The notes under the pieces: model-generated
What the model saw: only the letters and a program-made list of their open reading frames with translations
The model's database searches: none
Told to the model about the DNA's origin: nothing
Part shown: positions 1 through 27,200 of the stretch, one piece after another
How the letters are laid out: each line of letters starts with the position of its first letter
Position numbering within the stretch: the stretch's first letter is position 1
Position numbers and translations under genes: made by a program
NCBI GenBank assembly: GCA_002633005.1
Contig: NMRA01000036.1
Coordinates: 1,042,911-1,099,068 of the forward strand
Source: Phoronis australis
Lineage: Eukaryota; Animalia; Phoronida
Direction: 5' to 3'
Length of the DNA: 56,158 nt

Positions 1-250
1 GACGATAAAGCTCTTTGAAAAGGGCTACGCGTTCCGAGTATGATTGTCGTGTCGGGATTTAGATCGCCAGGTAAGATTAACCGCCCAGGGCGGTTGTCTG
101 TCGTAATAAGCGCCCATGTTCGGTTAACCGCCCATCCCCTACTTTAGGTGGATTTTCGATTTAACCGCCCACTGCTCGGTTAACCGCCCTCCCCCGATTT
201 TTTGGATTCGCCAATTTAACCGCCCAGGGCGTTAACCCGAACGATTACGG
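1..250. mobile_element. Right end of a putative Tc1/mariner-pogo-like MITE with repeated internal TTAACCGCCC motifs
   Basis: Several TAACCGCCC copies between 78 and 225. The segment ends ...CGATTACGG followed by TA (251-252), resembling the TACCGTA-type termini of pogo/Tigger-like MITEs. The left end is outside the window. Confidence 0.45.
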
Positions 251-304
251 TAATATATGATTAAAACCGAGCTGAGGAGCTAGAAACCTGGCTCAAGGGT
301 TTAG

Positions 305-372
305 CAGTGTGACCTGGTGGGACTCGAACCCACGACCTCGAGCAAAGAAACGGGCACTTATCAAGCAGGCCT
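305..372 (-). mobile_element. tRNA-like head (degenerate tRNA-derived SINE or tRNA pseudogene fragment)
   Basis: Minus strand reads ...GGTCGTGGGTTCGAGTCCCACCAGGTCA, a T-arm/B-box (GGTTCGAGTCC) with a paired stem, preceded by a degenerate A-box-like segment. No intact cloverleaf. Confidence 0.5.
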
Positions 373-1862: not shown

Positions 1863-2257
1863 TTAACTGCACCCAGGTCTTAAATTTTGTACCAGACAAT
1901 TATTTACAAAAGATTTTGTGATCATATTAAATCAATGTCAACCAAAAATGATATCAAGGACTGCACACAGTCAACTTCCTTATCAGCTGAGCAAAGGTCA
2001 GTGATGACTTAGTATTGAGGGGTGTCTGCATCCTGCTTTCTTATCACAGCCAAACTTGAAACATTGCTGTCAGGTGACAGAGACACTGATATAAAAAGGA
2101 GCCTTATCAGTCCTGTACACCAGTGCAAGTGCGCATGTGCACTCACTTATCAGGTCAAACCAACAACTTGAGAACGGTGGAAAGTCTATGTGGACAGGTC
2201 TACTGTAAGTCTTCATATTTCTCATTCTTTACTTATATTTTTCAAATTGAAAAAGTT

Positions 2258-2288
<31 letters not shown>

Positions 2289-2360
2289 CACACACACAAA
2301 CCACAAACGCACACATACACACAAACACACACACACACACACACAAACACACATACACAC
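2258..2360. repeat. Imperfect (CA)n microsatellite
   Basis: About 100 nt of CA repeats with CAAA/CATA interruptions. It explains the HT-rich ORFs at 2123-2446 and 2190-2399. Confidence 0.95.
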
Positions 2361-4450
2361 CTGAGCACAGAGTACATCAGGAAACTGAACAAATCATGAA
2401 ATTCTACTTATTGATAAATTTCTCTGTAAAACTAAACACCTACTAGCTAATTCTGACCAAGCTTGTTGAAGCTCATTATGGTACATCGCCTTATTTAACA
2501 TTATTTTTCGGTACAAGCACAGATTTTTATGCTCCTTTACTGACCCCTGCTCAATTAGCTTCACAAAGGCTGATGACGAGTAAAGTATACCAGGCTAATG
2601 TCAAAAATCTAATTAGAAAGCATGTTGGGCCAGTCCCCCTTTTCAACATTGTGTTCCAAGCATGAATACGGTGTTTTCTCTATCAGTTCTTACATTAATG
2701 TACGAAGCATTTTTCCCTTAAGAACTTGATGTTCCAATTAACCGAGACAAAACTGGCTAAACGAACTATTAGAGGTGAAAGTCAAGTGTTCGAATTATTA
2801 GAGATAGAGATAGATGATAACAATGAGTGCAACAACGGCCTCCGAGATGGTCGTTTGGCAATGCCAATTATATTACAAGTACCAAATTGTTGTTCCAGGT
2901 GATGAATTTACTTCGAAATATAATACCGGTATTTCAACGCTTTGTCACTTTTATTTTCTTCCCATTTTCACAAACTTCAAGGACCCCACCGACTTCAGTA
3001 CCTCCACTTTCAGCAACGCTGTCTGCCGCACTGTGTTTACGACTGCAGTGTACAACATAGAACATGCATTTCAAAAAATTCAGGCTAGAGAAACATGACA
3101 GTGGTTTTGCAAACCCTCCAAATTCGATTTAGGTGGAAGCTTTCGAATTTTGAAGAATTCCCACAACTCACAGAATTGTGTCAAATTCTCCCTATTTTGA
3201 TGAAAATCCCCCGACTTCGAACTAGCTCTCCCAGTTTTCTCGAAATATTAATTGACGGGTTATTGAGGATGTGTGGCGACCGAAGGGACAGTGTGCCTCA
3301 CTGGTTTAATTTGTTGGCAATACGTTACTGGACGCTTGTCCATCATCTTGAAGTAATAAAAAATTTGACAAGTAAAATTTTGATTTCACTTAATATTTGC
3401 ATCTCAGTCAAAGTGGCATAAGCCCATTTCACCAATGTCGCTACAGGTGGTTCTTTAGAAATACATATTTTGGATAACTATATGCAAAAGCATGCATTTA
3501 CCCAGGGTCAATCAGATCTTGCAGAAAAGGCATGTTATGGGCCCAGGCGTTTAATTGAAATATCTCAAAACTTAAATGGGGCGGTTTGTAGAGCAGTAGA
3601 TGCTTACTGTACTCTAAAGCTAAGAGGAAGCAGGCGCATAGTTTTACGTGAATGCTTTCGGGAATAAGAATTTGAAAAACTGCAATTATTAAGAAATTGA
3701 TGATTTTTATAGGATATCATCTCTACATACCTTTTTGCCACCCAAAATAATTTTATTTCAACATTGGCCAGGTTCAGCTAAACACAAAGTTCTTTCCATT
3801 GGAGTCTGAACAATCTATGACATGCTCGATTGATGAACCTTGGAGTGAAAATTAGAGGTAGTGGGGGGGTATACGAAGAGAGCAATAAAAAGATCGCTTA
3901 ACAGCTCCCTATAGGTATGGAAATCGGCCTAAGGAAGATGGAAACAGAATATTGCGGTTCCGAAAAACATTGGATACGAAAAATATCGTAAAGCACCGGG
4001 TCTTTTATAACTGCAGGGCGTCCACGTTCATTGCCAAACAACCACCTGGGTTGTTTATATATAGCCAAGCCGGTGAATGTAATCATAGATTTAATCCATA
4101 TTGTCACTGGTCGAATCAGCTCTTAAAGATCGCAGGACGGCACAGTACTTACTCTGCAATTTTGCAAATTCATTCGTGAGAGCATTGTTGGCATTTAATG
4201 ATTTGTGTTCTTTTATAGGAATACAAATTGCCATCTAAAAAGTGTGCACGAATTATTTTTTCTGACGCTAATATGTCTATAAAGTTATTTTCACTTGGAC
4301 ACCTACTGGGTAAAATATTTAAGAGAGATGCCATATTTCAAGGGAGGTGTACGGACTATTAGAGTATACAAACTGTTAGAGAAATCACCATAACCCTGCC
4401 TCTAGGCAACCATAGTCATGTAAGCTTGACAAAAGTTTGCTGGTCATTAA

Positions 4451-5734
4451 AGGCGAAAGCAACCTTTTTTCATGTCACTTTTAGCAAAAATAAGGTTTGT
4501 TGATTATCCCAGACACATTTTTCACTTAATTACAGCTTTTCGTAATTTGATTAATTTCTCGTCCTCTACTCCGGAAGTGACATTTTGGGAGGCTAGAGTT
4601 TCGCGCCAATTTCTTTTCATTAGTCTGACTGTGAGAGCTGTCGAGTCAGTCATTGTTCTACCTCGGTTGTGATAAGTTCGGTCGTCGTTTGCTTTTGTTT
4701 ACGCTGTTGCTGCGTGCCGGGATGTACTCATTATCGTCTCACATGCGCTTTGGGTACCATGCATCGCTTTCCGAAGGATGACACACTTCGCCGTACTTGG
4801 CTAGCTCGTTCATGTGAAGGACGCAGCGCTACCCGTCCATGCAACATACAAAGCAGTGGAGGGTTACTTAGTGTGTGGCATTTTCTGCCGTCACATTATG
4901 ACAGATATGTACGCCGAATTGATGAAGGTCCCTGCGAAACAACGCATGAAGAAGGGTACCATACCGTCGCTGTTGATTCCCAGCAGTGCCCCGTCGCCAA
5001 CCCCGAGAAGTGTGTTTTTGAAGCGAGAAGCCTCGCGAGCTGTGGCCACTGTATACAATGACTGGAGGCACTTCATCTACTGTCACCCGTGCCTCCGAAC
5101 GTTCCCCATTCCGTGCGATTTCGGGAACTAGCAGTGATTCGCCCTGTGTTGTTGTCTCTAGCCCAGAGCCTGTAAGCAGCCCTGTAGCGATGTTGAGTAG
5201 TGGGAGTGAATACAGGCCCAGTTTGACACCCAGTGAAGAGGACAGTTTGTCATCCAATGAGCCTAAGTTTGATAAGTTTATTGTGGACTTGTAATGGAGC
5301 TTTTTGAGGAAGGTGCCAGGTGTGTGGCGAGGGAGTCACAAGGCGGGATGTAAGCAGTTTGGGTGGCGAGATAACCCTCCAATGGGAGTGTGTCGTTGGA
5401 CACTCGGGCAAGTGGGACAGTTCTTCTTTGTACGTGAGACGATAATGAGTACACCCCAGTACGCAGCAACATCGTGGAATGTTGACTGACTTGTAAGCAA
5501 AAGCAAACGACGACCGAACTTATCACAACCGAGGTAGAACAATGACTGACTCGACTGCTCTCACAGTCAGACTATATGAAAAGAAATTGGCGCGAAATTC
5601 TTGCCTCCCAAAACGTCACTTCCGGAGTAGACGACAAGTAATTAATTAAATTACGAAGAGCAGTAAATATGTCTGGGATAATCAACGAACCTTATTTTTG
5701 CTGAAAACGACATGAAAAAAGGTTCCCTTCGCCT
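4451..5734 (+). mobile_element. Kolobok-like transposon family B: internally deleted element with long terminal inverted repeats and a THAP/transposase remnant
   Basis: TTAA at 4447-4450 and 5735-5738, with termini AGGCGAA...TTCGCCT. Inverted arms are ~290-300 bp (4451-4743 vs 5433-5734). The frameshifted interior reads CCVPGC...MHRFPKDDTLRRTWL...VC..HF...MKKGTIPSL (THAP), then a Ser-rich linker and a KFIV motif. TTAA target plus RR...YY termini plus THAP fits Kolobok. Confidence 0.75.
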
Positions 5735-6678
5735 TTAAGTTTAAATGAATTCTGTCACCAAGTAAGACTTGTCTTCATGCCATGACCTGTTTACGCTTGA
5801 CCATATAGCTTGTGTCGTACACCCAAATAGGATAAAATAAAGACGTCTGCCACATTGTTAGCAAGAGTATAACGGCTTAGTGTGGAACTTTAAATATTAG
5901 ATAGCTTGAATAATATTCGTCAAGCTTAAATAATCTTGCATACTTTAAAGCTTGAATAATATTACTGAGTACAGATTATTCAAGCTTGATGAATTTAGAA
6001 TTTTATTGTACTTTTGTGACATGCTTTTTATTTGTGTAGTGATATAAGTATTGGACAGTTTGGACTCAAAAATAACAGAATATTACTTAGCATAAGCAAT
6101 TATTATTATAAGTAAGAATTATTAGTCTTCTTACACCCATGCACAATTCTTAACAATTTTTCATAAATCTCAGCAAGATTTTTCAAAAATTTTGTTAAGA
6201 CTTCAAAAATGTTGACATCAAATCTATTGGAAAGATTTTAATTCTTGATAAATCTATTGTAGTCTTGAATTAAAAATGCAGTTTAGATTTTTAGCTGCTC
6301 TGGCATTCCACACGTTGTAGTCTAATTAGTAAAATCTAAATAGTTGGAAATTTCTAACCTAAATTTTTGAAATCCAAATGGCAGTGTACTCGTTTCACCA
6401 GCATATTGGAAACCATTTTGAAAATTTTGTAAAAGCTGGAAGTCAAGAATCTTTTATGGGCAGATACAATGAACAAGTCTAGATGATTCATAAGGCTTTT
6501 AATGTCAGCAACAGGAAAACGATTGCTCGATAAATTTCGAGTTCAACAATGGTTTTATTGTTAGAAATTATTAAATAATATGGAAAAAAGAAATGCTTAT
6601 CACTTTTGAAAGAGGAAAATAAAAATGTAGGTTAAAATATACCCTTTCAGAGCAAAGAAATTCTCCCTACTCACTAGA

Positions 6679-6706
6679 CTAATTTTAATAACTTCATCAT
6701 TTTCAG
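6679..6706 (+). other. Putative branch point and 3' splice acceptor of a 5'-UTR intron of the ADAM10-like gene
   Basis: CTAAT at 6679-6683, then a pyrimidine-rich tract ending TTTTCAG at 6706, 34 nt upstream of the ATG. A short uORF ATG AAA GCC TGA follows at 6710-6721. Confidence 0.5.
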
Positions 6707-6740
6707 AGCATGAAAGCCTGAGGATTAAGTACCAAACAAA

Positions 6741-9194
6741 ATGAAGGTGTTAAATTTTCTAATGATCATAGTTATTGGTCAAGCAGATGGGCAGAGGAAA
6801 CTCAATGATCAAGTATTGCACTATGAAGGTCTATACTACAATACAGAAAAGTTGCACAGGCAACACAGCCGTGTGAGCAGATCAGTAGATTCTCACGTGA
6901 TGTTAGAGTTCGAGTCACATGGACAGACATTCCCAATTAAGCTTAGAAACGACCGTACAACATTTTCGAAAGATCACGATACAATGTACGGAGGTACAAC
7001 AATGGAACATGAAGTTACCTACATGTATGAAGGACATATAATTGATCAACCAGGGAGCAAAGTTCATGGTTCAATTCTCAATGGTCGATTTTCAGGTGTA
7101 ATACACAGCCACAATGACACATTTTACATTGACAAACGAGAATATCATTTTGATGAACCACAAGACTTTCACTCGGTTATATATAAAGACCGAGATATTG
7201 TCCGAGATCCGCATGAACGTCAAGCATGCGGACATGAAATTCATGAAATCCACCAAAAGATGGAGCTAGAGTCAAGCTTAGCCAATCCACGCTTAATGTA
7301 CCATCAGACACATAATATTTATAGCAGGGCAACTAATAGTAAAAGTGGGAAAATTGGCAAAGGACGGACATGTCCCTTATATCTTCAAACAGATACAATG
7401 CTTTGGGAAGAAATGAAGAAAAGGTTCAAGAAGTCAGATGATGTTGCTGTCAAGGAAGAAATTACTGCTTTGTTGGGTATGCACGTACAAGCAGCAAGAA
7501 ACATTTTTGAAGGTACTAATTTCAAATCGGGAATTCGTGGAATCACATTTACCATTAGACGCACTCGCATCAATACAACACTAGATTGCGAAGGAACCAA
7601 AGCAACACACAACCCTTTCTGCAGTAGAAACATTGATGTATCCATGTTTCTGAACTTGAATTCCTACCAAAACCATGATGACTATTGTTTAGCATACATA
7701 TTCACATATCGAGACTTCATGGGTGGAACTCTAGGACTGGCCTGGGTTGGCAATCCAAGTGGGTCTGCAGGAGGCATTTGTGAAAAAAAGCGTACTTTGC
7801 AGGAGGAAGGTGGAGTATTATTAGAGAAAAGTACCAATACTGGCATAGTCACGCTAATCAACTATGGAAAACCTGTCGTGTCCAAAGTGTCTCATTTGAC
7901 ATTCGCCCATGAAATAGGACACAACTTTGGCTCTCCACATGATGCCAAAACACCGCAGTGCCAACCATACAGCGAAAGCAAGAGTCCCGAAGGTAATTAC
8001 ATTATGTTTCCAAGTGCAACATCAGGCAACCGACCAAATAATATCAAATTTTCACCATGTAGCATTGGCAACATGAGCCTTGTTTTGGAAGCGGTTATGA
8101 GTAATAAGCATGGCAAACAGAACTGTTTTGTTGACGAGAAAACAGAGTTCTGCGGTAATGGGATTAAAGAAGGTGATGAAGAATGTGACTGCGGCTTCCA
8201 CGGATACTGTGACGATGAATGTTGCTACGCAAGGGATGATCCACAGCACCCTGACAAAAAGTGCATGCGCAAAGTGGGTGTACAATGCAGCCCATCAGAA
8301 GGTCCATGCTGTACGAAGCAATGCAAGTTCAAAAATGCAACAACATGCTCATACAAAACGGATTGTGCAAAAATATCTTACTGTACAGGGGACAAGGCAT
8401 CTTGCCCAGCTCCACAACCAGAGCCTACCGGCACACCTTGCAATGACAACACACAGATTTGTCAAAATGGGACATGCAGTGGCAGCATTTGTTCCGCAAT
8501 TGATTGGGAGGAATGTTCCATCACCACAGAAAACAAAGCTGAAATGTGTCACTTAGGATGCCGTCCAGCTAACAATGAAACATGCTTCAGCTCCGGTGGT
8601 ACAAATCTACCCGCTAAGATTCAAGAGCTCATGAACAACATAAGCAACAATGAGCCAATTATTTTACAACCTGGAGCACCGTGCAACAACCTGCAGGGCT
8701 ACTGTGACTCTTTAGGCAAGTGTCGAGGTATTGATGCCAACGGACCACTGGCAAGACTTAAAGAGCTACTATTTAATCCAGCCACTTATGATTTGATTAT
8801 TGTGTGGATAACCGAACATTGGTGGGCCGTAGCGTTAATTATTCTAGGAGTTATTTTGCTAATGGGGGGCTTCATTAAAGTTTGTTCTGTGCATACACCC
8901 AGCACAAATCCAAACAAGCCCAAAGCACAGAAAATCAGCCACACTCTACGCCGTGTGTCTGTACAACATTACCGAAATCGAAATCGAGCTCGGCCAGACA
9001 GAAGCATACAACCCAGTGCACATCAAATGGAATCAGGTAACAGACAAGGAGAAAGACCCAAAACACAGGCTCCAACCAGACAGGAACATGCATTCAGGAG
9101 ACCAGTGCCATCAGCACCACCATCTTACAGAGAGACAACAGGACATGATAACAGGTATTTCAGAGAGTACGAGATGAGGAGTCAAAGAATTTAA
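6741..9194 (+). CDS. ADAM10: ADAM10/Kuzbanian-like disintegrin and metalloproteinase, 817 aa, CDS on a single exon
   Basis: Uninterrupted ORF with signal peptide and prodomain (RVSR site at 6870-6881, CG cysteine switch). The reprolysin domain has DDYCLAYIFTYRDF..GTLGLAWVG, zinc motif HEIGHNFGSPHD (7908-7943) and Met-turn GNYIMF. These are followed by disintegrin CGNG...EECDCG and CSPSEGPCC, Cys-rich PGAPCN..QGYCD..DANGPLARLK, and TM WWAVALIILGVILLMGGFIKVCSVHTPS, all characteristic of ADAM10. Confidence 0.96.
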   Translation: MKVLNFLMIIVIGQADGQRKLNDQVLHYEGLYYNTEKLHRQHSRVSRSVDSHVMLEFESHGQTFPIKLRNDRTTFSKDHDTMYGGTTMEHEVTYMYEGHIIDQPGSKVHGSILNGRFSGVIHSHNDTFYIDKREYHFDEPQDFHSVIYKDRDIVRDPHERQACGHEIHEIHQKMELESSLANPRLMYHQTHNIYSRATNSKSGKIGKGRTCPLYLQTDTMLWEEMKKRFKKSDDVAVKEEITALLGMHVQAARNIFEGTNFKSGIRGITFTIRRTRINTTLDCEGTKATHNPFCSRNIDVSMFLNLNSYQNHDDYCLAYIFTYRDFMGGTLGLAWVGNPSGSAGGICEKKRTLQEEGGVLLEKSTNTGIVTLINYGKPVVSKVSHLTFAHEIGHNFGSPHDAKTPQCQPYSESKSPEGNYIMFPSATSGNRPNNIKFSPCSIGNMSLVLEAVMSNKHGKQNCFVDEKTEFCGNGIKEGDEECDCGFHGYCDDECCYARDDPQHPDKKCMRKVGVQCSPSEGPCCTKQCKFKNATTCSYKTDCAKISYCTGDKASCPAPQPEPTGTPCNDNTQICQNGTCSGSICSAIDWEECSITTENKAEMCHLGCRPANNETCFSSGGTNLPAKIQELMNNISNNEPIILQPGAPCNNLQGYCDSLGKCRGIDANGPLARLKELLFNPATYDLIIVWITEHWWAVALIILGVILLMGGFIKVCSVHTPSTNPNKPKAQKISHTLRRVSVQHYRNRNRARPDRSIQPSAHQMESGNRQGERPKTQAPTRQEHAFRRPVPSAPPSYRETTGHDNRYFREYEMRSQRI

Positions 9195-9251
9195 TGTCAT
9201 CAATTTTTGTGATAACTTGTATTTGATTGACAATAAGGACCAAGAAGAAAC

Positions 9252-9367
9252 AATAAACACTACTGTGATAAGATTATTAGTGTGGTGAAAATGTTCCTAA
9301 AGATGCATTTTGTACTGTTTAGCAGTTACAAAAGCGCAAAATGAAATAAATCATTTGTGAGAATAAA
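9252..9367 (+). terminator. Candidate polyadenylation signals of the ADAM10-like gene
   Basis: AATAAA at 9252, 9345 and 9362, 58-170 nt after the stop codon. The region is AT-rich, so chance occurrence is possible. Confidence 0.45.
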
Positions 9368-12137
9368 ACCGATCTCCTAATATTCCTTACAGTGATAAGA
9401 CTTGATTTCCAGGAACAACAAAAATGTCAAAGCTATCAATGACGCCTAGTCGGTGAAAAGAAAATGCTTCCGAATTTATTGGAGTTGGTCACTGAACCCT
9501 AAAATTGCGAATTTGAAAACGCCGCATGTGCATATTGCCTTGTGACTTGAGTTGCTGCCTCACTTGGCTACAATTTCAAGATCAAATGAAGCGCTTTGGT
9601 TAAGAATTCTACACTGACAGCTAAACAGCTGCGAAATGCAGATTTAATTAAGATGCTGAACAAAAATCTGTAGATTCCACAACCTATACTAGACTTCAGT
9701 ATGTATTTTGTTATGCATTATCATACATGAAAAGTTTACCTTGTACAAAAATCCAATTCAATATTTAGTGTTACAAATAGGTGTTCAAAATATTACAACG
9801 CCTCTTTTCTACATATTAGATTGCTTTTGTTCAACGTTCAGTTGCCTCTGTAACACTTAAGTTATGCAGGACCCTATCAACAAGCCAAATATCTGCAAAA
9901 TCATGAACTTTGCCTCATGCCAGTTTGAAAAAAAAATGTTTACCCAAACCGGACCCTACTGTCGGTGAATAGGTAGGGAGGCACAGAGTTTTTCTAAATA
10001 CTTTATAAATCAGTCTTGCCATCATGTCCACCAATGTTCAATACTAAACACCAAGGGCACCAAGCGAGCCTCAATATCAAACCAAAAGGTAGCTGTTTCA
10101 TTTTCGTTCCGGTACGTATTTTGATTCTCTCTTAAATGTGTTCAGGCAATCGTATGCAATGGCCCCGGCCATCTTTCAATCTGTCAAGCATTCCGGAAAT
10201 TTACGCCTATGACATACTGCAACACAAATATGTAATTTGCCTCATATGCAATCAGTTGCAGATTTTTTGACAATTAAAGCTTTCTGTGCTTTCGTGTTTG
10301 TCATTATAGGAAAAAAATTGCAGCAGTGACAATGATTAAAACGAGTCGAACAGTCTTATTGCCTGATGAGATAGCTAGTTCTGTGATATGTTCCGAAATT
10401 GGCCAAATTTGGATATTTTCTAGGGTCCTACATAGCCTTAAAAAAACCATTATCTCTTGTTCACAGTGACTGACACTACAGGTTTCAGTATCACTAACCT
10501 TACTTTGTAAAGAAATAAGTTTGCTGTTAAAATTCTATGTAAAGCGCTAAACCTAACTATTATGTAGTGAGCTATCTTTGATTACGTAGCTAAAAAGAAA
10601 TTTGTCGGTTTTTATTTAATATGAGAATACTCGTGTGCAAATTTCGCTTGGGCAGTTGGAGTAACGTTACTTCGATAAATTTTGTAATGTCCTTGCAACC
10701 TAAAATTTTGAACATACTTACCCTTAATGGCACAATAGCTCTAATTAATATGTGAAGATGTATAATTTTGGATGAATGCATGCCTTAATTCATCACAGAA
10801 GTTTTCAGGGACTCATACTCCAAAAACTTTATCATAAACAAGTAGTAATTTTCATTGAAACCCTGAAAATTGCCCTCAGCTGGTAAACCAATCCAGTTCA
10901 TTTCTTTTTTAATGTACCAAGAGTTAATTGACATAACAAGTATGAATAATTAGTTAATTAATTAATCAACCATTTAGTATGCGAAGAGTCTCATACTTAC
11001 GCTATTGTTGTTTTTACATTTTTGGTAACAGCATTCAGTGATTCATAATGAAAAGATGTTTTTGAAACTTGCACCAGCTTACTGTTAGTCTGGTGAATAA
11101 TGAGGTGCTCTAATACAATACGGTATATAAGTCAATGAGTTAACGTGCCTACTGCCAATACAGAGGAAAACAAGCTGAATAAACAAGATAACAACTGAAT
11201 GAGAAGAACAGCACACCCCATGACCCCCACGATGATTGTAAGTGGATGAAAAGGAAGAAAATGACCACATTGTCAGACAAAATTCAACGAAAATAACATG
11301 CAATGGTTATTTTGTTCACGTCTCTGCAATATTCTGCACATGTTTCACCTCAGACATGTAAGTCATTATTGTGGTTTTGCTTACTAAAATGATGATTAAA
11401 AACAGAACAAGAGCAATGCAGAGCGCTGAAATGTGCCCATGAATGCATCGCAAACAGTGTGCTTTTAGGGTTGTTTATTTGTGTCATAAAAATGGCCGCT
11501 AGATGGCGCAAAAACGTACAATCCATCCGAAAATGGGAACATGTCGTGGCTTCTTTAATAGAAAGCGGAACTTCAGAGAAATGAAGGAACTCAGAATAAA
11601 ATGAAATTGTCACTAGGGGGCACAGTGTTCATTGGATCCGCCTGAAAGTAGTCATTGTCTGTTGTTAGCATCATATAAATACACTTATTGAATTTAATAC
11701 AGATCCAGCAGTGGGTTTAGGAGATACAGTTATGGGTGCACAACAAAACAAAAGTACCATTGGAGACGCCACAGTAGTCAAAGTCGTCGTCGTCAACCGT
11801 ACTCTTCACACACAGAATATAAACGCCAATTTTCAAAACCATCCTTAGAATGATTTGGTTGATAGAAGAGTGGACACCAAAACAGATTCGAAAACAGCAA
11901 AAATGACCACTACGTGGCACAAAATACATTGATTCTATCCAAAAATGGGAGGATAGCGTCATCTCACCAATAGATTTATGAAAATCCGTTGAGGACCCTT
12001 GAAGATAGAGGTAAACGTATAATCTAAAATTGCCACCAGAGGTCACACCAGTAGTCAGATCCGTCCGAAAGTCGTCGTTGTTCTTTGTCAAAATCATATC
12101 TTGTTAGATTTAGTAAAGATTCTGAAAATGGTTTTAA

Positions 12138-14378
12138 GGAGAATGCCACCCAAAACAAAAAAAAAAACTATTTTGTATCAATTTAGATCGAGTAGTTCTA
12201 CTCGATAACGGCACGTTACCTGACATCTGACAGCAGACAGAGGTATTGAAATTACCCAATGATGTAATTAGTTTCACACGCAGTCTGTTCAGGAGTTCAC
12301 AACACAGGTTAGTGGTGTCAGCTTATCGCTTGAATTCATCGTTTAACACCAATAAATCATCAAATTTCAAAGTAAAACCCTTAAAAATACACCGAGTTCC
12401 TATAAAAATGTTTTATTTTGCTGTTACGAATTTACTGGTATTTGGACACACCATAACCTACAAAAGTTCGGCAGGCCAATTCACCAAGGTCGTAGCAGGA
12501 GTTTGGGGTCTGCTCACAGATAAATTCAAAGTATTCTTCCGTGAAATACAGACAGCATATCTTTGTTGTTTATACTTGTGATTTTTTGAGTTCTAAACAC
12601 ACAAAATGCTTCTGGCCACTGGCTCGGAAGCCGATCAGGCCCGTTGCGGCCCGACTGACTCGTTATCCCGGCCAGTGGCTCGGAACCCGATCAGGCCCGT
12701 CGCGGCCGCCGGGACTGGTACGAACATAAACCAGCTTGAGTACTGTTGGAAACTAAACCACCAGTCACGAAAAGACTATAATANCGTATGTCAAAGGGTT
12801 TTGGAGATAAAGCAGCGGACGCCGGACGCCAGACGCCGGACGGACGCCGCCCGGACGGACGGACGGACGGACAGAGATGACGGCATAATGCGTCCACATA
12901 TAAATATGTGGGCGCATAAAAATGTTTTATTTTGCTGTTACGAATTTACTGGTATTTGGACACACCATAACCTACAAAAGTTCGGCAGGCCAATTCACCA
13001 AGGTCGTAGCAGGAGTTTGGGGTCTGTTCACAGATAAATTCAAAGTATTCTTCCGTGAAATACAGACAGCAGATCTTTGTTGTTTATACTTGTGATTTTT
13101 TGAGTTCTAAACACACAAAATGCTTCTGGCCACTGGCTCGGAAGCCGATCAGGCCCGTTGCGGCCCGACTGACTCGTTATCCCGACCAGTGGCTCGGAAC
13201 CCGATCAGGCCCGTCGCGGCCTCCGGGACTGGTACGAACATAAACCAGCTTGAGTACTGTTGGAAACTAAACCACCAGTCATGAAAAGACTATAATAGTG
13301 AGTCAAAGAAATAATGTGCACGTAATTATTTATGTGAATTAGCCACCAAACTGAAAATTTACTTACTCAGTCGGGGGCCGCGAAGTCGGGTTCCCTTTCC
13401 ACAGACCGTCAGGGCAAAGGTTGTACACTAACAATGACTTGAATAATGTATTTGTATTAAAAAAAAATTTCTAAATAAAGATTCCCCAAACATGTGACAA
13501 TAGCATATAAAATCGAATAATTGTTTCACGACAGCTTTCTGTCAGCAAACACTGAATTAGCATGCACTCACACGGCCTCAGTGCCCGATCAATTACCTTT
13601 GTTGCCAGCATCAAAAGCCGGTAACGCATTGGTTCATTCATTGCTTGATTCTCAAAAAATTTGCACTCACGAGCACTCCAAGGCGTTACAAATTGTATCT
13701 AATGAGACAGGCTTTGTTTCAGTTTCATATAAAGCTTTGGTTAGGATCATTTTAGGATGAGAATAATTCACTTTGAAACAGAACGAAGAATAAAACGTCT
13801 ACATGGAAACTCGCCCGGCGCCAATCCAGACTTAGTCAAGAGCTCATTCGACGAAGACTTCACGGGTCGGATCGTTAGGTTTCACAGGCTATCAGTTCGA
13901 TTCCGGAATACACTGATCAAGAAATACTAGAGAGCTGTCGAGAACATGCATAGGCAACGGACGTATGGATAGTTCTTTGGTAAGCCGAAATTCGTCAGAG
14001 AAATGACTGTCGACGAAATGCCGGCCACAGACACCGAGATGTTTCACGGCCTCTTACTTGCTATTAACAGCATACCTTTCATTCTTCACTACCGCGAACC
14101 ACTTCCTAAACATTTCGGGCTCTCGAGGAAGTAAAAAAAAAACGATATATCCGCTTTCTTCACAGCTTCATAGATCGGACAAGCTGAAACTGATGCACCG
14201 CAATATAGCAGCATTCACTCAGCAGACGAACCACTTACGTCGCTACTTCGCTTTTCACCTTCCTCACAGGTTAACATGACACCTCTTGGCAAGGTGAGGT
14301 CGACAGTACATGAGGCGACATGGATGTAAACCGATTAAGATGGTAAAAAAGACTAATTAAATCGGGTGGCTTTCTCCT
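12138..14378 (-). mobile_element. Kolobok-like family A copy 2 (both ends present, inverted); contains a single-N assembly join with a ~380-bp duplication
   Basis: TTAA-GGAGAATGCCACCC at the left and GGGTGGCTTTCTCCT-TTAA (14379-14382) at the right. It is the reverse complement of copies 1 and 3, with a THAP remnant at ~13970-14200 on the minus strand. Bases ~12402-12783 repeat at ~12916-13296. Confidence 0.75.
12785..12917 (+). mobile_element. 3' end of a young family H element
   Basis: GGAC/GACGCC microsatellite then hairpin ATGCGTCCACATATAAATATGTGGGCGCAT, nearly identical to 50080-50199. It begins right after the N at 12784. Confidence 0.7.
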
Positions 14379-18148: not shown

Positions 18149-18262
18149 CTTGAATATTTCTATCATGCCTGTGGCAGCTGTGCGTACATCTCTCAGGTAG
18201 CTGTCGTCTTTGGCGCCAATCACAGGACTATCAGCAGAAAGTACGGCAGACTTATTCATCAC
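18149..18262 (-). CDS. TSC2: TSC2 coding exon (114 nt): [38 protein letters not shown]; last TSC2 exon found in the window
   Basis: CCCACAG acceptor, AAG|GTAAG donor, phase 0-0. Matches the tuberin VM..S...L.DV.TA..G segment. Confidence 0.88.
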
Positions 18263-21200
18263 CTGTGGGAGAGCAAATGACAATTAACTGTGCTTGACTG
18301 AGAAATTGCGACAAAATCTGGAGAAAAACATTGTTGGCTTTTGTATTTTCATAAAAAGTAGATTGTTGTGTGGGTCAGTGAACTAACACAAAAAATGGAT
18401 AGCAACAAATGGATTTATTAATTAAAACAAAAGCAATGCAGATCGTTGAAAACCGTCCATGACAGCAGGTACCAGAGTCAACAACACTTGCAAAATTTTA
18501 AAAAGGTCCTTCACAGGAGTAAGGGGATAGAGCGGAGGATGACAAAAAAGAGAAAAATTGCCACCAGGAGACAGTTGTCACATCAACCCACAAATCAATG
18601 CCATCTTCTCAGGGACAACAACGGACTCGAAATAATAAAAATAGCAACTAGGTAGTGCAAACATACATCAAATCCCTATGAAAATGGAAGATTTTAGTCA
18701 TCTCCTTGATAGAAACCTATTTGGCAAATTTTAAGAAAACCCATCAATGAAAATACAGAAGCAAACGTAAAAAACTAAAACTGCCACTAGAGCCCACAGT
18801 GGTAGTTGAATGGGTCTGAAACTTGTAAAAGTATGTTATCAGCTCCATAGTCATTGATTAAAACAGCACGGCAATAGGGGGTGCCAAAAAGCAGTTGAAC
18901 CTGTCCAAACGTCAACCACAGCCTTCTCATCACAAACACATCTGCCAATTTTCTCAACCATCCTTCAAGTACTTTGGCAGATAGGGAGGCGGACTCCAAA
19001 ATGGACTCTGTTAAAAATCCCCACAAGGAGACGCACAATACGAGAAGTCTGTCCAAAAATGGAAAGGCATTGTCGTCACTTTCATAGAAAAATTATAAGC
19101 CACGTTTCATGAAAATCCACAGGAAAATTGTAAAAAACAAAATTGCCGCTAGGGCCAAAGGCTGAAATTAGTCGAGACATCATCTGTCGATACCTCCATA
19201 GGAACACATCTGCCAAATTTCCCTATAAGTTCTTGAAAAAGGGTTAAAGTACATACAGAAAAAAAAAACAAAATCTTCACTACGGGGTGCCAGGATAGTT
19301 GAACACGTCTGAAAATAAACATCAACTTGAATTGCAGCCTCCTCATTAGAGACACAACCATCCTTCATGAAGTTTGGCAGACAGAAAAAGGCAGATGCCA
19401 AAAACGGATTTAAAAACTTTAACTATGGTCACTATGTCAAACAGAATCAACAAATCCATCTGAAAATATATAGATGCCGTAGTCTTCATTATAGAAACAT
19501 ATCTGACAAAATTTCATGAATATCCATCAAAGAATTACAAAGATACAGAGGCAATTCATAAAAGCTAAAATAGCCACTTAGGGACACAGCGGTACTCAGA
19601 TCGGTCTGAAATTTGTCATCATCAATCGTCAGCTTCATGCAAGGCTTTAGTAGATACAGCTATGGACATTGGACGCCCACGCAGAGATGACAGCAATATG
19701 CACCTGCATGTAAATATGTGGGCCAATAAAATCAACAAAAACATCAAGTTCATATATCAACAGAAAAAGCAGTAAAACTAGGCCAAAAGCAGAATGTCTC
19801 TATCAGCCCTTGTCCACAGCACAAGGCATGGTCACAACAGTACTGTCAAACATGTCAACACAATCAGTGCGCAAGTGAGTGAACACAAATGTTTGAGTGG
19901 CAAAAACACTATGCATCAGCAAATGCACCTCCAAACTCTGCTCACACCATAAGTCACGACTGAAACATGGCCAATAAGGTGGGTAGTTGAGAAACTCCAT
20001 CATTAGCAATTGTAACACTAGTCCGTTGTTTCACCACCTTACACATACTACGGAAATTCCTCTGCGTACGCTCATGCTATGAAACAAGCCATTACGTAGC
20101 GCTAAGAGACAACAACAGAACAGCAATCACACAGCAAGTCAATGGTTAATGCTCTCAACCATTCGACTTAATCAAACCTCAAGAACACGCACTTCAAAAA
20201 TCAGTAGAATGTTATAGATCTGCGCGCAAGATCTTATCTCAGATTTAACTCAATATTCCGACTTGACATTAAACCAATCACACTGAATGTACGGAAAAGT
20301 AAGGATCATGCAAACTTTAAACTCCTCGCATTTTGAGTACCGAGATTAGACCCTAGGTCTAGACACCCCAAAACACAATTCTGACACAAAAGTGCTTGGT
20401 TAAGGTTTGCCTTTGTATAGAAGGTTGTTTAGAGGTTCTTTTACTGAAGACACTTGGGGTGGTATATAAAATATTCGTATCCAGTTTGTTCATGCTGATG
20501 TGAAACACATCATGAACTTAAAGTAGAATGCCACCCGATTTAGTCTTTTTTACCGTCTTAATCGGTCTATATCCACATCGCCTCTTATACGGTCGACCTC
20601 ACATTGCCGAGAGGTATCGCATTAACCTGTAAGGAAGGTGAGAAACGATGCAGCGACGTCAGTGGTTCATCTGCACAGTGAAGGCCGCTTTATTGCGATG
20701 CATCGTTCCTGCTTGTCCGAACTATGAAGCTACGAAGAAAGCGGGTACATCGTTATTTCGACTTCCTTGAGAGCCCGAAATGCTTAGGAAGTAGCTCGTG
20801 GTGGTGAAGAATGAAAACTATGTTTACTTATTAATAGCAAGTATGAGGTCGTGAAACATCTCCGTGTTTGTGGCTGGCATTTCGTCGACAGCGATTTCTC
20901 TGACGAATTCCAGCTTACCAAAGAACTATCCATACGTTCCGTTGCCTGTGCATGTTCACGGTGCCTATCTAGTACTTCTTGATCAGTGTATTCCGGTTCG
21001 ACTGAACTGATAGCCTGTGAAACGTAACGATCCGACCAGTGAAGTCTTCGTCGGATGAGCTCGTGACTAAGTTGCCGGAGATTGGCGCCAGGCAAGTTGC
21101 CATGTAGACGTTTATTATTCTGCGTTCTGTTTCAAAATGAATTATTCTCACCCTAACCAATGCTGATATACAACTGACACAAAGTCTGTCTCATTAGATA

Positions 21201-24200
21201 CTAAATTCCTTTGCAGTATTTGTGAGTGCAAATGTTACCAGAAGCCAGCAATGAATAAACCACTGTGTTACCGGCTTTAGATGCAATAAAGGTAATTGAC
21301 CAGGTACCGAGCCCATGTGAGCGCATGCTAATTCAGTGCTTGCTGACAGAAAGCTGTTGTGAAACAATAACTCAATTTTATATGCTATGGTCACATGTTA
21401 GGGGAATCTTTATTTAGATATACAAATACATTATTCAAATCACTGTTACTGTACAACCTGGCCCTGACCGTTCTGTGGAAGAGGAACCTGACTTCGCAGT
21501 CCCCGACAAGTAAGTAGATTTTTAGTTTCGTGGCTAATTCACATAAATAAATACGTGCACATTATTTCTTTGGCTCACTATTATAGTCTTTTCGGGACTA
21601 GAGATTTAGTTTCCAACTTAAGCTGGTTTATGTTTGTGATGCCCAGTCCCAGCAGCTGCAAAGGGCCTGATCCGGTTCCGAGTCACTAGCTGGGAGTAAC
21701 AACTGTTTTGTGTGTTTAGAGCTGAAAAAATTGCAAGTCTAAAAGTATAACACACAGCTATGTTCCCCCCGTCTGTATTTCACAGAAGAATAATTCGAAT
21801 ATATCACCAAACATACCCGAACCATGGTAAATTGACCTACCAAACTCTGTAGGCTATGGTACGTTCAAATACCTATAAATCCGTAACAGTGAAATAAAAC
21901 AACACGTTTGTTCAAGAACTCCATGTATTTGTGAGGGGGTTTATTTTGATGATTTATTGGTGTAAAACAATGAATTCAAGCGATAAGTTGACACCAGTAA
22001 ACGTGTTGTGAACGGCTGAAAAGACTGCGTTCGAACCAAATATGTCATTGGTTACTTTCAACACCTCCGTCTGCCGTTAGGTGTCAGGTAAAACAACTGA
22101 ACTTGCTGTTATCAAACGGACCTACTCGATCTAAATTGAAACAAAACAGGTTGTTTTTTGGTTGGCATTCTCCTTTTTAATGTGGGAGCAACAGGTGATT
22201 CGAAAATACACACTCTAAAATCATTCAATCTATGAACAAGAATAAGGCCAAGCTGAAACTCAAAGAAGAGTGACCCCAAGTGGCCAACATTTTATGATGG
22301 TGGTGACATAACACCAAAAGAGATGATTAACTTTAAGAAAAATTCAACTAAAATGTCCCTTATATTGTTACCATTGAGCTGAAATTGCACCAACAATTAT
22401 TGTTTGCAGAAAACTTAATTTTGTCAAAAGACAATTCACTTTTATATCACAGAATAATTTTACATTCATTTGGCTAATGGTGTTTTTTCCGGAAGTGGAT
22501 AAATCATAAAAAGTTGTGAAAATGTACCAAAGTTTGTTTTCATAATTTAGAAACCTAATGATCGTACAATAATTTCTACAACTTATATTGAGAACTAACT
22601 CAGCTCGAGTTATTAACTAGTAATGGTAAACGTCTTAAATTAGGAAGGGCAATTTCATATGTCAATGCCATTCAGAGCTGATGGTGTTTACAAATAACAA
22701 GGGCAACACACGCCATTGATAGGCACTACAGCGGTCATAGTTACTCACAACGGTCACGCATTTTGAAAATCAGTTTTCTCTACTGAATAACAAGCATCAA
22801 TAACTGGTTCCCAAAATCAGGGACCCCTGTAAGTGACTGTTGCCCCAACAGCAACACAAAACACTGTAATGAAAAAATTGAAAGAAATTGACTGTCTTCT
22901 TTGAACTAATTATTAGGCAAGTGTAATAAACTAACACTAGATATCAGAATAACTTGTAAAGATGAAAGTCATACTATTCTACAGGGGCTGTGCAGATTTA
23001 GAAATCAAAAGGAACTGTGCACTAATCATCATAAACATGCAAAATGTCTTGAGAACCCATCAAGATGTTTTAAAGGGAATGCAATTATATAACAAGAGCA
23101 ACGCAAAGCCCTGAAATGCGCCCACGAATGCACTGCAAACGGTGTGCTGGCTGGAGCATAGAACAGACATTACATCGGACGTTTTGTTTGAGTAGGCTTG
23201 TAAACGTACGATCAGGATTAATTAAGGATTAACTTGAACCAGTCTTCAGTCAATCGTCACACCGAAAGCTATTAGCACCGGTCTGTAACAACCTGCGCCC
23301 ACCCACACACGGGGAAAAATGTGACACCTTCTTTAGGTCCTGGATTACATGTACCAAGTTACCCCGAAAATATTATTTTCAAAGTTTTACACCTTGGAGA
23401 GGGCTCGGAAGGCTTTTAGCTTTGGTGTGAAGCTGTTTACGAAATTAAATACAAAATTTTCCGCCGTGGTGGGTAAAATCGACCGAATAAAATCATCCTT
23501 GAGTAATCTAGATTATTTACCGGCGAGGCAAAATTGGTTTTCTACAATTAGTCTGCTGCTAAAATTGTGGTGTTATCTCTTGCGTCGACTTTTGGCGCAA
23601 TAAAATATTGCGTCACCTATTAGCCAGTTCCTTTTTCCCAGATTCTTCAATCAAACCTTCTCCCTCGAGGTTGCGTAAATGTCGCAACAAGTGATCAGAA
23701 TTAGTTTCACTTCATTATATGTTTTTGGAATTTTGATATCAGTAAACCGAATTTTAGAACAAATTTTGCTGCGATGATGTTATCATCATCTAATGGGAGA
23801 TGTCGAAAAAATTCTGGAAGTAGCGCGTGTCACGAATGTACTCCTTTCAAAATGACGACATACATTTCATTGTTACAAAAGGCAGAGAATTATGCAAGAA
23901 GATGACGTCGGATATTTTTCGCTTAAACGGTCGTAACGGGCAAGGTGAAAGTCAATTGACTCCCAGATTTTGCATGCTCACGTTGATACAAGTTTCATGA
24001 CAAGGTGACGAGTGTAACTATCCAGGCTGTGTGCAGTTTTGAGGTCTATCGGAGCTCAATACACAGTGGCACCTTGCTGTATTTTGACAATAGTCTTCAT
24101 ACAGCTAGCTGGCTAAATAGGAAGGCTCTAGCTTCGAAACAATTTTTTACTCCGAAAGTGACACCAAATTCAGAATGATGATGGATCATGCATGACACTA

Positions 24201-27200
24201 TAAAGGATCACATTCTTCAGTTTTCATGCGCCCGTGATCTTAATATTGGCGATATGTTCAAACCACTGTTTATGTTGTTCCTAAAATAAACTTGGGTTCT
24301 ATTGCTGTACCAACATATTAAGAAATTATACAACTGAAATAAACAATAATTATCTGTGGTAAGGCGCAATATACAGTGTGATGAAGTGATAATCAAGAGC
24401 AATAACGGATGAGCGCAAGTGCGTGCTGCCTGTTGAGCATTCCGCGGCATGAAAACACTTGAGGTCGTAAAACATCAAGCGTTGTTTCATGATTTTTATG
24501 CAATTTTACTGTAAAATTTCAAATTTGTTGCATGTTTTTATGCATAATGTACAGTATAAAAAGTCTCATATTTAGAGTTAGAAATTATGCTTCAGCGATT
24601 ACTTAACGTTTAATTTTACCACGCCGTCATTAATTCAACATAAAGTTTATGTTGGTATAATGTCACGCACTTCATTTTTGTAGGTTGATTCGATTTTACC
24701 TCCTTTCAATAGTTAAACAAAAGTTGATAAACCGATGTCAAGACCGGAGTTGCCACTGGTGAACGAACAGCGAACAGTTCAACGTTTGTTTGGCCAAAGT
24801 TCACCGCTAAGTCATAAAATGGTAATTGCCGACCAAGGACATGCTTAATCCGAATTGGTCGTCTACGCTAGGCGACCACTTTGATGACCCAAGTGCCGAC
24901 CGCAGAGCCGACTCAGCAGACGGCTCCTGGCCGACAATTGTTGGTCAGCTGCTGGTCGGCTAGACGACTGGTCGACCAATTTCCGACAGGGCCGATAAAA
25001 ATTCGCAATGTGTGCTGTAGCTGTATGAAGACTTTAGTCTAAATCCAAATTCGTTTTATCGTGTTCTTGTCAATAAAGTTTGTTCGCTGTACGTCAGGAA
25101 AATATCGACAATACTTCCCGTGGATCCCGTGTTTTGTATTCATACGCGCACTCACAGTGAATGAATGAAAACAATGAAATTAAACAATGTTGTTTTAGAG
25201 CTTGTAATAGCTATAGTAAACTTATTTTGAATATTACAATGCATATGTCATCAAAAACTAAATAATACACCGAGTAGGTCTACATTTATACTGTCCTAAC
25301 TTGGGTCCTATATTTTTCTATTCGTGTGCACCGAGTGAAAGTATTCATGAGTGTTGCTTTTTGCAAAATCTCTCATCCTAGGCCGATTTGAAAAATTCAA
25401 AGTTGTACCATCATTTTTTCACTCCTCTTTTCAAATATACACTCAAAACTACGTAAAACGCTCTCCAGAAAAAGTACGGTCATCTAGGCTAGATTGTAAT
25501 CAGCTGACAGTATACGCATGAGCGAAACCAATTATCCTCGCTCGTGACTCGATGAATAGAGCAGCTAGGCGGGATCCCTTTGATCTTGAGCTGAGCGCGA
25601 CACAGCCAAGGTGGATAAATACGGTCTATTCCAATCTGCCAAACCCCAGTTTTCCCTGATCAGTAGGGTTTGATGTCACCTCATTTCAGTAGTGGGAATG
25701 TTTATGGCATGTCACTCTCTATTGTTGTGAGAATAATTCATCTTGTCAATATTATCACCACGGTAAAATGTCTCTACACCATAACTAGGGATCTGTACTT
25801 TTACTTTACAGATGATATAAAAAAAACTCGATTTCCCCCTAAAAGTAATTGTCAGAAACCCAACACAGAGCCAAACACAACAGCCTATTGTCATTGCCAG
25901 AATGGGCTGATAATTAAATTGAAGAAAACAGGTCAACACACATGCACACATACACGCAAACAAACGAACAGTAAATTTGTGACAGCAAGCTATAGCTCTT
26001 TACTGATGAGGCAAGAATAGATAACTTTTTGTCTAAATAAAAAAGAATGAGAAACACGTTCTTCTTACCCTTTCCAGTATGTCCAGCAGATCGAGACACT
26101 TCTGAGAGGCACAAGACTGTGCCAAGTCCACTATGATCTGAACGGCTGTTGTTCTCACCATTACATCATTGTCATGGTCAATGTGCGTCAACTGAGGCAA
26201 GACAACTAGTTCGATGAGCTCATCCTACAATGATGTTTAACGAGTCAATATACCACCTGGCCCACAACAAATTGCAACAAAAGTTTTTACAGTGGTTTTA
26301 CGCTCTACTGTGTATTCGTATTAACAGGAAAAAGTCTACCATAATCTGACCACCAGAAATGGGTTAATACTGCGTCATTTCCAAGATGGCCACCGTGACG
26401 TTTCAAAATCACCAAAAATATATAAAACTTCTTCAATAATTGCGATCTAGAGACATAATTTTTGCTTCTAGTGTATGGTCTTAAGGGGTGAGCAACTCAC
26501 TGGTGTGCTTGAAATTGAGATATGATTAGTATTTGATATTTAATTCAAGATGACTGCTAAAACTCGGGAGCGAAAAATCACTATTTGTCCTTTAATTCGG
26601 GTGGTCAAAAACAACCGTTCGAATTTTGACTTTCATTTTTTCGAAAAACATTCATTGAAATTGCATAAAATTTTGCACATATGAATATCAATCCATTGTC
26701 AGTACACCATAAAAAACATAATACACTGTGTTTTCGTCCCAGGACAGCAAAGACATGACGGTGTTCTGTCGTTCAGCAACTTCTCCAGACGTGAGGGTGC
26801 TGAACGTGCGATAACATCTGACTCCTTTGTTAACAGCCCAGCTGAGTCGTTTGTCCCATAGGACAACAAGCAGGCCAATTATCTCCCAGGCTTCAAAAGG
26901 TTACTGAAACCTGGCAGAATGGATTGTCTTAATTTCTGTTGTAGTTAGGCGATTTTGGCGATTCGAAGCTAAATATGATCAGCATTTGAGAAGGAATTCA
27001 GAAATGCGATTGGTTTATGTTCAAATACGTTTAACTTAACTTTCATTTTTAGCACCACAGCCCAATCAGGCTAGATACGTTCTGATCGGAGATTAGAGCA
27101 ATTATCGAACAAAAGAGAGCTGGCCCTCCAACCATAAATGTCAGAATGGCGTTAATGAGTCGTGTAAGATATTGGCTACAGGGGTGATCTTCCCAACTTG

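What the first reader, a model, noticed from the sequence alone, without database searches (positions are those of the whole stretch)
6741..9194. Intact intronless ADAM10/Kuzbanian gene nested antisense inside a giant TSC2 intron
Seen: a 2454-nt uninterrupted ORF with every ADAM10 domain and an intact zinc motif. It lies on the strand opposite TSC2 and 3' of the last TSC2 exon found (18149), which ends on a clean donor only about a third of the way through tuberin. I found no further TSC2 exon in 1-18148. Known: animal ADAM10 genes are normally intron-rich, and the host TSC2 gene shows this genome keeps ancestral introns. Inference: a retroposed ADAM10 paralog kept under selection inside a >18-kb TSC2 intron, physically linking a Notch sheddase to the mTORC1 repressor.
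Basis: partly seen in the sequence, partly recalled or inferred. Interest (0 to 1): 0.75.

Follow-up and report, generated by a model that had tools for sequence, protein, structure and literature searches.

The report
Furin-less ADAM10 retrocopy inside TSC2 intron
An invertebrate animal carries a second, expressed copy of the cell-surface protease gene ADAM10 with no introns in its coding part and none of the full-length furin activation sites its relatives keep; it likely arose from a reverse-copied mRNA and likely sits backwards inside an intron of the TSC2 gene, a common kind of arrangement.

Summary
The ORF is real: 817 aa, every ADAM10 domain, intact zinc motif. It is transcribed from the + strand in three of four RNA runs, nearly silent in the fourth, and under purifying selection (16 synonymous, 8 non-synonymous differences). 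The gene is not intronless. RNA joins an upstream non-coding exon ending at 2204 to 6707 across a 4.5-kb 5'UTR intron, so it has one coding exon. The same runs hold a second, much diverged ADAM10 transcript, expressed in all four, so this is a paralog; the second gene's introns were not seen. No TSC2 exon after 18149 lies in the window. Nesting is likely but hangs on a single-N scaffold join at 12784 and on TSC2 continuing left of base 1. New here: the prodomain has no R-x-K/R-R furin site, whereas 120 of 120 top homologs have two or more (17 of 95 distant relatives have none). Best reading: an old ADAM10 retrogene that gained an upstream promoter and is likely activated differently. Nothing supports a functional Notch–mTORC1 link. 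Antisense nested retrogenes and intron-poor ADAMs are known kinds.

The parts
2090..2096 (+). TATA-like box (TATAAAA), about 32 nt before an initiator-like CCAGT at 2120-2124; likely promoter
   Evidence: read from the sequence; start site not mapped; TATA/Inr spacing is recalled knowledge
2122..2204 (+). non-coding exon 1; 3' end shown, 5' end inferred; holds two upstream ATGs (23- and 7-codon uORFs in the spliced model)
   Evidence: loose end before 6707 in 15 X2 reads (median 44 nt) and one X1 contig maps once, exactly, to 2175-2204; donor GTAAGT at 2205; uORFs
2205..6706 (+). 4,502-nt GT-AG intron in the 5'UTR
6741..9194 (+). ADAM10-type coding sequence, 817 aa, in one exon that begins at 6707; an in-frame stop upstream in the spliced UTR fixes the start codon
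6870..6881 (+). upstream convertase site reduced to RVSR (aa 44-47); homologs have R-x-K/R-R here
7227..7229 (+). Cys163, aligned with the conserved prodomain Cys (likely cysteine switch); the basic cluster just before it in spiralian homologs is missing
7290..7370 (+). prodomain/catalytic boundary without R-x-K/R-R (shortened against Owenia ADAM10)
   Evidence: 44 of 51 homologs keep the site within 32 aa of the first catalytic Cys
7908..7943 (+). zinc-binding motif HEIGHNFGSPHD (aa 390-401)
8169..8411 (+). disintegrin domain (aa 477-557)
   Evidence: PF00200, 37.2 bits, cut-off 35.1
8541..8726 (+). ADAM10 cysteine-rich domain (aa 601-662)
   Evidence: PF21299, 50.5 bits, cut-off 28
8817..8885 (+). 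predicted transmembrane helix (about aa 693-715), followed by a cytoplasmic tail with a PPxY motif
   Evidence: hydropathy; tail motifs
9195..11137 (+). 3'UTR; AATAAA at 9252, 9345, 9362 and 11178; no genomic poly(A) tract after it (longest A-run in 9195-11300 is 9 nt)
   Evidence: X1 pieces to 11137 and + strand depth; depth drop after about 9180
12402..13308 (.). single-N scaffold join at 12784; 12402-12796 repeats at 12916-13308 (395 bp, 97.7%), inside a repeat element; nesting depends on this join
18149..18262 (-). last TSC2 exon in the window, phase-0 donor, transcribed on the - strand
18149..52684 (-). 5' third of TSC2: 12 coding exons found, one expected exon not found, one exon present twice

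Best explanation
This is an expressed, purifying-selected second ADAM10 gene with one coding exon, one upstream non-coding exon and no full furin site; it likely arose long ago by retroposition of an ADAM10 mRNA, likely into a TSC2 intron on the opposite strand, and likely works as a tissue- or stage-restricted membrane sheddase switched on by something other than routine furin cleavage. Shown: single coding exon, spliced 5' exon 4.5 kb upstream, + strand RNA in some samples only, a second ADAM10 transcript in all four runs, intact catalytic motifs, no R-x-K/R-R site in the prodomain. Inferred: (1) reverse transcription of the parent mRNA removed all coding introns in one step (about 0.75); (2) the copy reached a TATA promoter through a gained 5' exon; (3) it lies inside TSC2 (about 0.75) and was tolerated because its splice and poly(A) signals face away from TSC2; (4) with the second gene covering general shedding such as Notch, this copy lost or weakened its three convertase sites, so it would stay latent until the weak RVSR site or a non-furin protease removes the prodomain. 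The neighbourhood to TSC2 is taken as incidental.
For: Single coding exon, no read joints in the ORF. 5' exon mapped. In mammals most multiexonic retrogenes gained upstream exons (75-93%), and over 80% of ancient human retrogenes are multiexonic (PMC4772013, passages). Second transcript: X1 record 4 (2,641 nt, depth 99) matches only 7672-7750 and 8286-8328, at colinear spacing (611 against 614 nt), with the same loose ends in X2-X4. At 8313 the paralog gives 22 of 40 reads in X2, 8 of 33 in X3 and 47 of 47 in X4. Reads at least 95% alike: 426, 301 and 12 in X2, X3, X4. Selection: 16 synonymous and 8 non-synonymous of 24 differences, pN/pS 0.13, binomial p 1.6e-6. Furin sites: 0 in the query, 2-5 in 120 of 120 top homologs, while the query departs at only 9 of 179 near-invariant columns, fourth-most of 121 rows and tied with three others. 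Human ADAM10 needs its upstream and boundary sites for activity (PMC9863580, passages). Human ADAM10 has 16 exons (PMC5874708, passage); the host TSC2 has an intron about every 40 codons. Join: the other single-N join (27575) shows the same overlap pattern (3,073 bp, 96.4%, identical exon) and lies within the ordered TSC2 exon series; the 97.7% overlap at 12784 exceeds the 69-81% of other copies of that repeat in the window. 71% of nested Drosophila genes are antisense (PMC3814207, passage).
Against: The parent's genomic structure was not seen; only mRNA fragments of it. No poly(A) tract remains, and target-site duplications were not searched. Invertebrate ADAM10 intron counts were not checked; the 16-exon figure is human. 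No downstream TSC2 exon is in hand, and the join at 12784 runs through a repeat with 95-99% alike reads from elsewhere, so a mis-join is possible. 17 of 95 distant ADAM10/17-like representatives also lack a full furin site, so the loss is not unique, and the minimal RVSR may still be cut. pN/pS rests on 24 of 40 shown rows (21 more not shown), without a transition correction. The tree leaves the query on a long branch (1.19) without a resolved place. The tissues of X2-X4 are not given.
Confidence: 0.55

Rival explanations
1. A DNA-level duplicate, or the original locus, lost its coding introns in place by recombination with cDNA; the 5'UTR intron is then an ancestral leftover.
For: A 5'UTR intron survives, as expected if cDNA-driven loss spares 5' introns (recalled knowledge). 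No poly(A) scar. Parent structure unseen.
Against: Every coding intron would have to go while the neighbouring TSC2 keeps an intron about every 40 codons. Position next to or inside an unrelated gene, restricted expression against a broadly expressed paralog and a long branch fit the derived copy.
Confidence: 0.2
2. The gene is a retrocopy but is not nested: the scaffold is mis-joined through the repeat at 12784, or TSC2 is split or truncated here.
For: Single-N join inside a repeat. Fragmented assembly (62 windows with notes on 57 pieces). No downstream TSC2 exon in the window. The implied intron (over 18 kb) exceeds the longest complete one found (11.9 kb as assembled, which includes a 3-kb duplicated stretch).
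Against: The overlap identity fits alleles, and the same join type at 27575 is consistent with TSC2 exon order. TSC2 frames are open and its last exon is transcribed on the - strand.
Confidence: 0.2
3. The protein is never released from its prodomain and acts as a latent decoy or adhesion protein that competes with the second ADAM10 for tetraspanins or substrates.
For: No full furin site; human ADAM10 loses most activity when both sites are replaced (PMC9863580, passage); the prodomain cysteine is kept.
Against: Zinc motif, catalytic Glu and Met-turn are intact and 170 of 179 near-invariant columns are kept; a pure decoy would be free to lose them.
Confidence: 0.1
4. The nesting is functional: convergent transcription couples this sheddase to TSC2 and so to mTORC1 control.
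For: Both are transcribed on opposite strands in X2 and X3; the TSC2 exon bin has depth 1.02, 0.93 and 0.51 in X2, X3, X4.
Against: TSC2 depth is not lower where the ADAM10 copy is on (three samples, low depth). Nearly 10% of Drosophila genes are in nested structures (PMC3814207, start of abstract). No conserved nesting could be checked.
Confidence: 0.04

Closest known systems
ADAM10 / Kuzbanian (human PDB 8ESV, 6BE6; Owenia fusiformis CAH1789926.1)
   Same: Domain order, zinc motif, Met-turn, ADAM10-type Cys-rich domain, one transmembrane helix; 45% identity to Owenia; 524 bits to human ADAM10
   Different: One coding exon (human 16 exons, PMC5874708); no R-x-K/R-R convertase site; off in one of four runs while the second ADAM10 is on
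Amniote group I testicular ADAMs (Adam1, 4, 6, 20, 21, 24-26, 29, 30, 34, 36-39) and opossum Adam9b (PMC4550289, passages)
   Same: [quoted passage not shown]
   Different: Those derive from the Adam9/9-like branch in amniotes; this one is ADAM10-type in an invertebrate. That paper found no retrocopy of other somatic Adams in opossum. Testis expression is unknown here.
Independent ADAM10 duplicates: Drosophila Kuz-like, Xenopus ADAM10-like (PMC3055250, passages)
   Same: Second ADAM10 paralog, about 43% identical to canonical ADAM10, transcribed
   Different: No retroposition, nesting or furin-site loss mentioned in the passages seen; orthology not tested
Antisense nested genes and 5'-exon-gaining retrogenes (PMC3814207; PMC4772013)
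   Same: Opposite strand to the host, narrower expression, faster evolution, gained upstream exon
   Different: Nothing in kind; only the gene pair is new

Membership tests
ADAM10 subfamily | M12B catalytic domain with HExxHxxGxxHD and Met-turn | tested here: met
ADAM10 subfamily | disintegrin plus ADAM10-type Cys-rich domain, transmembrane helix, cytoplasmic tail | tested here: met
   PF00200 and PF21299 above cut-off; hydropathy
ADAM10 subfamily | closer to ADAM10 than to ADAM17 | tested here: met
   524 against at most 159 bits; nearly all named top hits are ADAM10 or unnamed proteins with UniRef ADAM10 labels
ADAM10 subfamily | signal peptide and prodomain with conserved Cys | tested here: inconclusive
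   prodomain aligns from aa 6 and Cys163 is conserved; signal peptide read by eye, no predictor run
canonical furin-activated ADAM10 | R-x-K/R-R upstream and boundary convertase sites | tested here: not met
   0 sites against 2-5 in 120 of 120 homologs; only minimal RVSR remains
canonical furin-activated ADAM10 | sheds Notch and other substrates with a C8 tetraspanin | not testable with these tools
   needs an assay
retrogene | lacks the parent's coding introns | tested here: inconclusive
   no coding intron; parent's introns unseen
retrogene | a parent gene exists in the same species | tested here: met
   second ADAM10 transcript in 4 of 4 runs; that it is the parent is inferred
retrogene | poly(A) tract and target-site duplication | tested here: inconclusive
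   no poly(A) tract, expected for an old event; target-site duplication not searched
retrogene | expressed and under purifying selection | tested here: met
nested gene | host exons on both sides on one molecule | tested here: inconclusive
   host exons on one side only; join at 12784; no genome held

The most novel reading that the evidence does not exclude
An ADAM10 retrogene that shed all three furin sites under selection and became a sheddase armed by a different, tissue-specific trigger, possibly in gonad or gametes: an invertebrate parallel, from the ADAM10 branch, to the intron-poor testicular ADAMs that amniotes built from ADAM9.
Probability: 0.25. Interest if true: 0.55.

Novelty: new variant of a known kind. 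Interest (0 to 1): 0.3.

Why it matters
The gene arrangement is ordinary. The protein is the more useful part: a natural ADAM10 that keeps its catalytic machinery but lacks the convertase sites human ADAM10 needs offers a direct test of whether and how ADAM10 can be activated without furin. It would also add ADAM10 to the ADAMs known to have left retrogenes; my searches returned no paper reporting one, though most subscription journals are not in the library.

Tried and rejected
Whole genome: none held, so no parent locus and no downstream TSC2 exon search. Protein searches for the second ADAM10 or a close relative: best full-length identity 45-48%, fragments up to 64% over short conserved stretches; motif look-ups for the paralog in the 120 and then 268 proteins held at the time gave only one partial match in an unrelated protein; the 120 fragments were not screened. 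The exact protein is not in the collection. IQ-TREE did not finish; FastTree on 51 of the 120 hits leaves the query unplaced, so no lineage or duplication date. Spliced-leader trans-splicing at 6707 considered and rejected: the joined letters map in cis at 2175-2204. Minus-strand intronic reads over the ADAM10 locus as a sign of TSC2 pre-mRNA: depth 0-1.5, not separable from DNA carry-over or strand leak; no verdict. A candidate for the missing TSC2 exon near 34441 rejected as weak (score 40, no fitting splice sites by eye). First exon-boundary guess was off and was corrected. No RNA holder was on record (not evidence); the laid reads are the evidence. The primary paper on the upstream convertase site was not available; its content is taken from PMC9863580. 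No structure or complex prediction was run. Earlier-findings look-ups for this gene pair were empty.

Full report
Observation. The ORF at 6741-9194 (+) encodes 817 aa; the next longest of 11 ATG ORFs of 100 aa or more is 148 aa. Pfam gives reprolysin (aa 208-450), disintegrin (477-557) and ADAM10 Cys-rich (601-662) domains above cut-off. The zinc motif is at aa 390-401, the Met-turn at 422, and one hydrophobic stretch near aa 693-715. It scores 524 bits to human ADAM10 and at most 159 to ADAM17. The best full-length relatives are 45-48% identical, about as far as ADAM10s of different phyla are from each other. A FastTree tree of 51 of the 120 hits puts it on a long branch (1.19; median 0.3) with no resolved place.

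Gene structure from RNA. Four runs of one species label were laid. In X2 and X3 the ORF is covered throughout (16-43x and 5-34x per bin), almost only with first mates on the - strand, which in usual stranded libraries means + strand RNA; the TSC2 exon bin shows the opposite direction. No read-supported joint lies in the ORF. At 6707, just after an AG, 15 reads of X2 and one contig of X1 run on into letters that map once and exactly to 2175-2204 (0 matches in 100 shuffles), followed by a GTAAGT donor. So the gene has a non-coding first exon and a 4,502-nt 5'UTR intron. A TATAAAA at 2090 and an initiator-like word near 2122 fit an exon of about 83 nt, and the median overhang of 44 nt agrees; the start itself is inferred. 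The spliced leader has three upstream ATGs (23, 7 and 3 codons) and an in-frame stop, which fixes 6741 as the start codon. The 3'UTR has poly(A) signals at 9252-9362 and RNA pieces to 11137; there is no genomic poly(A) tract.

A second ADAM10. At 80% likeness a 2,641-nt contig of X1 (depth 99) lies only on 7672-7750 (17 differences in 79) and 8286-8328 (6 in 43), at colinear spacing; the same loose ends appear in raw reads of X2, X3 and X4. Read by hand in the ORF's frame, they continue as ADAM10-like sequence with cysteines in register. At 8313 the paralog supplies 22 of 40, 8 of 33 and 47 of 47 reads in X2, X3, X4. Reads at least 95% alike number 426, 301 and 12 from similar amounts read. 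The window's gene is therefore one of at least two, old enough to have lost most nucleotide likeness, and the restricted one. The second gene's introns were not seen.

Selection. One search showed 40 of 61 difference rows; I dropped 10 that belong to the paralog and 6 in the UTR. Of the other 24, 16 are synonymous and 8 not, against 511 synonymous and 1,940 non-synonymous sites: pN/pS 0.13, binomial p 1.6e-6, no transition correction.

TSC2 and nesting. Two tuberins (Ptychodera P0121, Mytilus P0122) place 12 coding exons from 52684 to 18149 with open frames and canonical splice sites. One expected exon (P0121 about aa 460-487) was not found and may lie in the 364-N gap at 34829-35192. Nothing beyond P0121 aa about 590 hits the window, including the RapGAP region, by tblastn or by an HMM of the two proteins (best i-E 0.43). 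The control recovered 11 of 12 upstream exons well but the last only at i-E 0.69, so one short, diverged exon could be missed; that would move the gene one intron along, not out of TSC2. Nesting then needs two things: TSC2 continuing left of base 1, and the single-N join at 12784 being right. That join has a 395-bp, 97.7% overlap inside a repeat whose other copies in the window are 69-81% alike; the join at 27575 has the same pattern (3,073 bp, 96.4%, with an identical second copy of one exon) and sits within the ordered exon series. I read both as overlapping allelic contig ends and put nesting at about 0.75.

Lost activation sites. Human ADAM10 has an upstream site (RAKR, 48-51) and a boundary site (RKKR), and replacing both cuts activity (PMC9863580, passages). 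The query has no R-x-K/R-R in the 210 residues before the catalytic domain; 120 of 120 top homologs have two to five. The upstream site is reduced to RVSR; the basic cluster before the prodomain Cys and the boundary site fall in short deletions against Owenia. The boundary site alone is also absent in 7 of 51 homologs, among them the named chelicerates. RNA reads confirm the region apart from listed point differences. The rest is well kept: 9 departures at 179 near-invariant columns. Against over-reading: of 146 further representatives, 95 had a zinc motif and a long enough N-terminus, and 17 of those also have no full site; the top-120 set favours canonical proteins; and R-x-x-R may suffice for weak cleavage.

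Mechanism. An ADAM10 mRNA was likely reverse-transcribed and inserted, likely into a TSC2 intron in the antisense direction, where its splice and poly(A) signals would not disturb the host. It likely became expressed by splicing to an upstream exon with a TATA promoter. With the other gene on in every sample, this copy likely specialised: narrower expression and activation no longer by routine furin cleavage. Intact catalytic residues favour an active sheddase over a decoy. Substrates are unknown; Notch is possible but is more likely served by the broadly expressed gene (inference).

Comparison with what is known. Intron-poor ADAMs of likely retroposed origin are known in amniotes from the Adam9 branch (PMC4550289, passages). 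ADAM10 has duplicated independently in Drosophila and Xenopus (PMC3055250, passages). Nearly 10% of Drosophila genes are in nested structures (PMC3814207, start of abstract), 71% antisense (passage). Gained 5' exons are the rule in old mammalian retrogenes (PMC4772013, passages). Human ADAM10 has 16 exons (PMC5874708, passage). Searches for an intronless or retroposed ADAM10, for ADAM10 in lophophorates and for ADAM10 nested in TSC2 returned nothing on point, judged from listings and abstract starts only; no supplements were read, and genome-paper supplements could list this gene.

Verdict. A real, working ADAM10 paralog with one coding exon, likely a retrogene, likely nested. The arrangement is ordinary and no TSC2 coupling is indicated. 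The furin-site loss with restricted expression is the new and testable part. New variant of a known kind; interest 0.3.

Noticed in passing
window 24516-27574 and 28647-31710: 3,073-bp direct duplication (96.4%) around the single N at 27575, giving two identical copies of one TSC2 exon (30360-30205 and 26224-26069); likely an assembly artefact of two alleles, not exon duplication.
   Followed up: partly
window 34829-35192: 364-N gap in the TSC2 intron series where one expected exon is missing; flanking phases (2 and 0) require an exon there.
   Followed up: partly
window 4759-5061 (+): Weak THAP-domain-like ORF (E 0.042, below cut-off) in a repeat inside the ADAM10 5'UTR intron; heavily covered by 90-95% alike reads from other copies.
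   Followed up: partly
window 32073-33865 (-): Run of 90-112 aa open stretches with raised GC inside a TSC2 intron, by eye a broken transposon gene; no convincing Pfam hit for the four stretches scanned.
   Followed up: partly
window 7508-7528: Six differences within 21 nt shared by all covering X2 and X3 reads, three non-synonymous, in the catalytic domain (aa 256-263); a diverged allele tract, unexplained.
   Followed up: no
window 2122-2204 joined to 6707-6740: Three upstream ATGs in a spliced leader of about 117 nt; human ADAM10 also has two uORFs, said not to control translation (PMC5874708, figure legend).
   Followed up: no
P0010, P0013, P0016, P0018, P0019, P0088: Chelicerate-clade ADAM10s also lack R-x-K/R-R within 32 aa of the catalytic domain, though they keep other sites.
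   Followed up: no
window 17098-17687: Tandem pair of about 295 bp, 95% alike.
   Followed up: no
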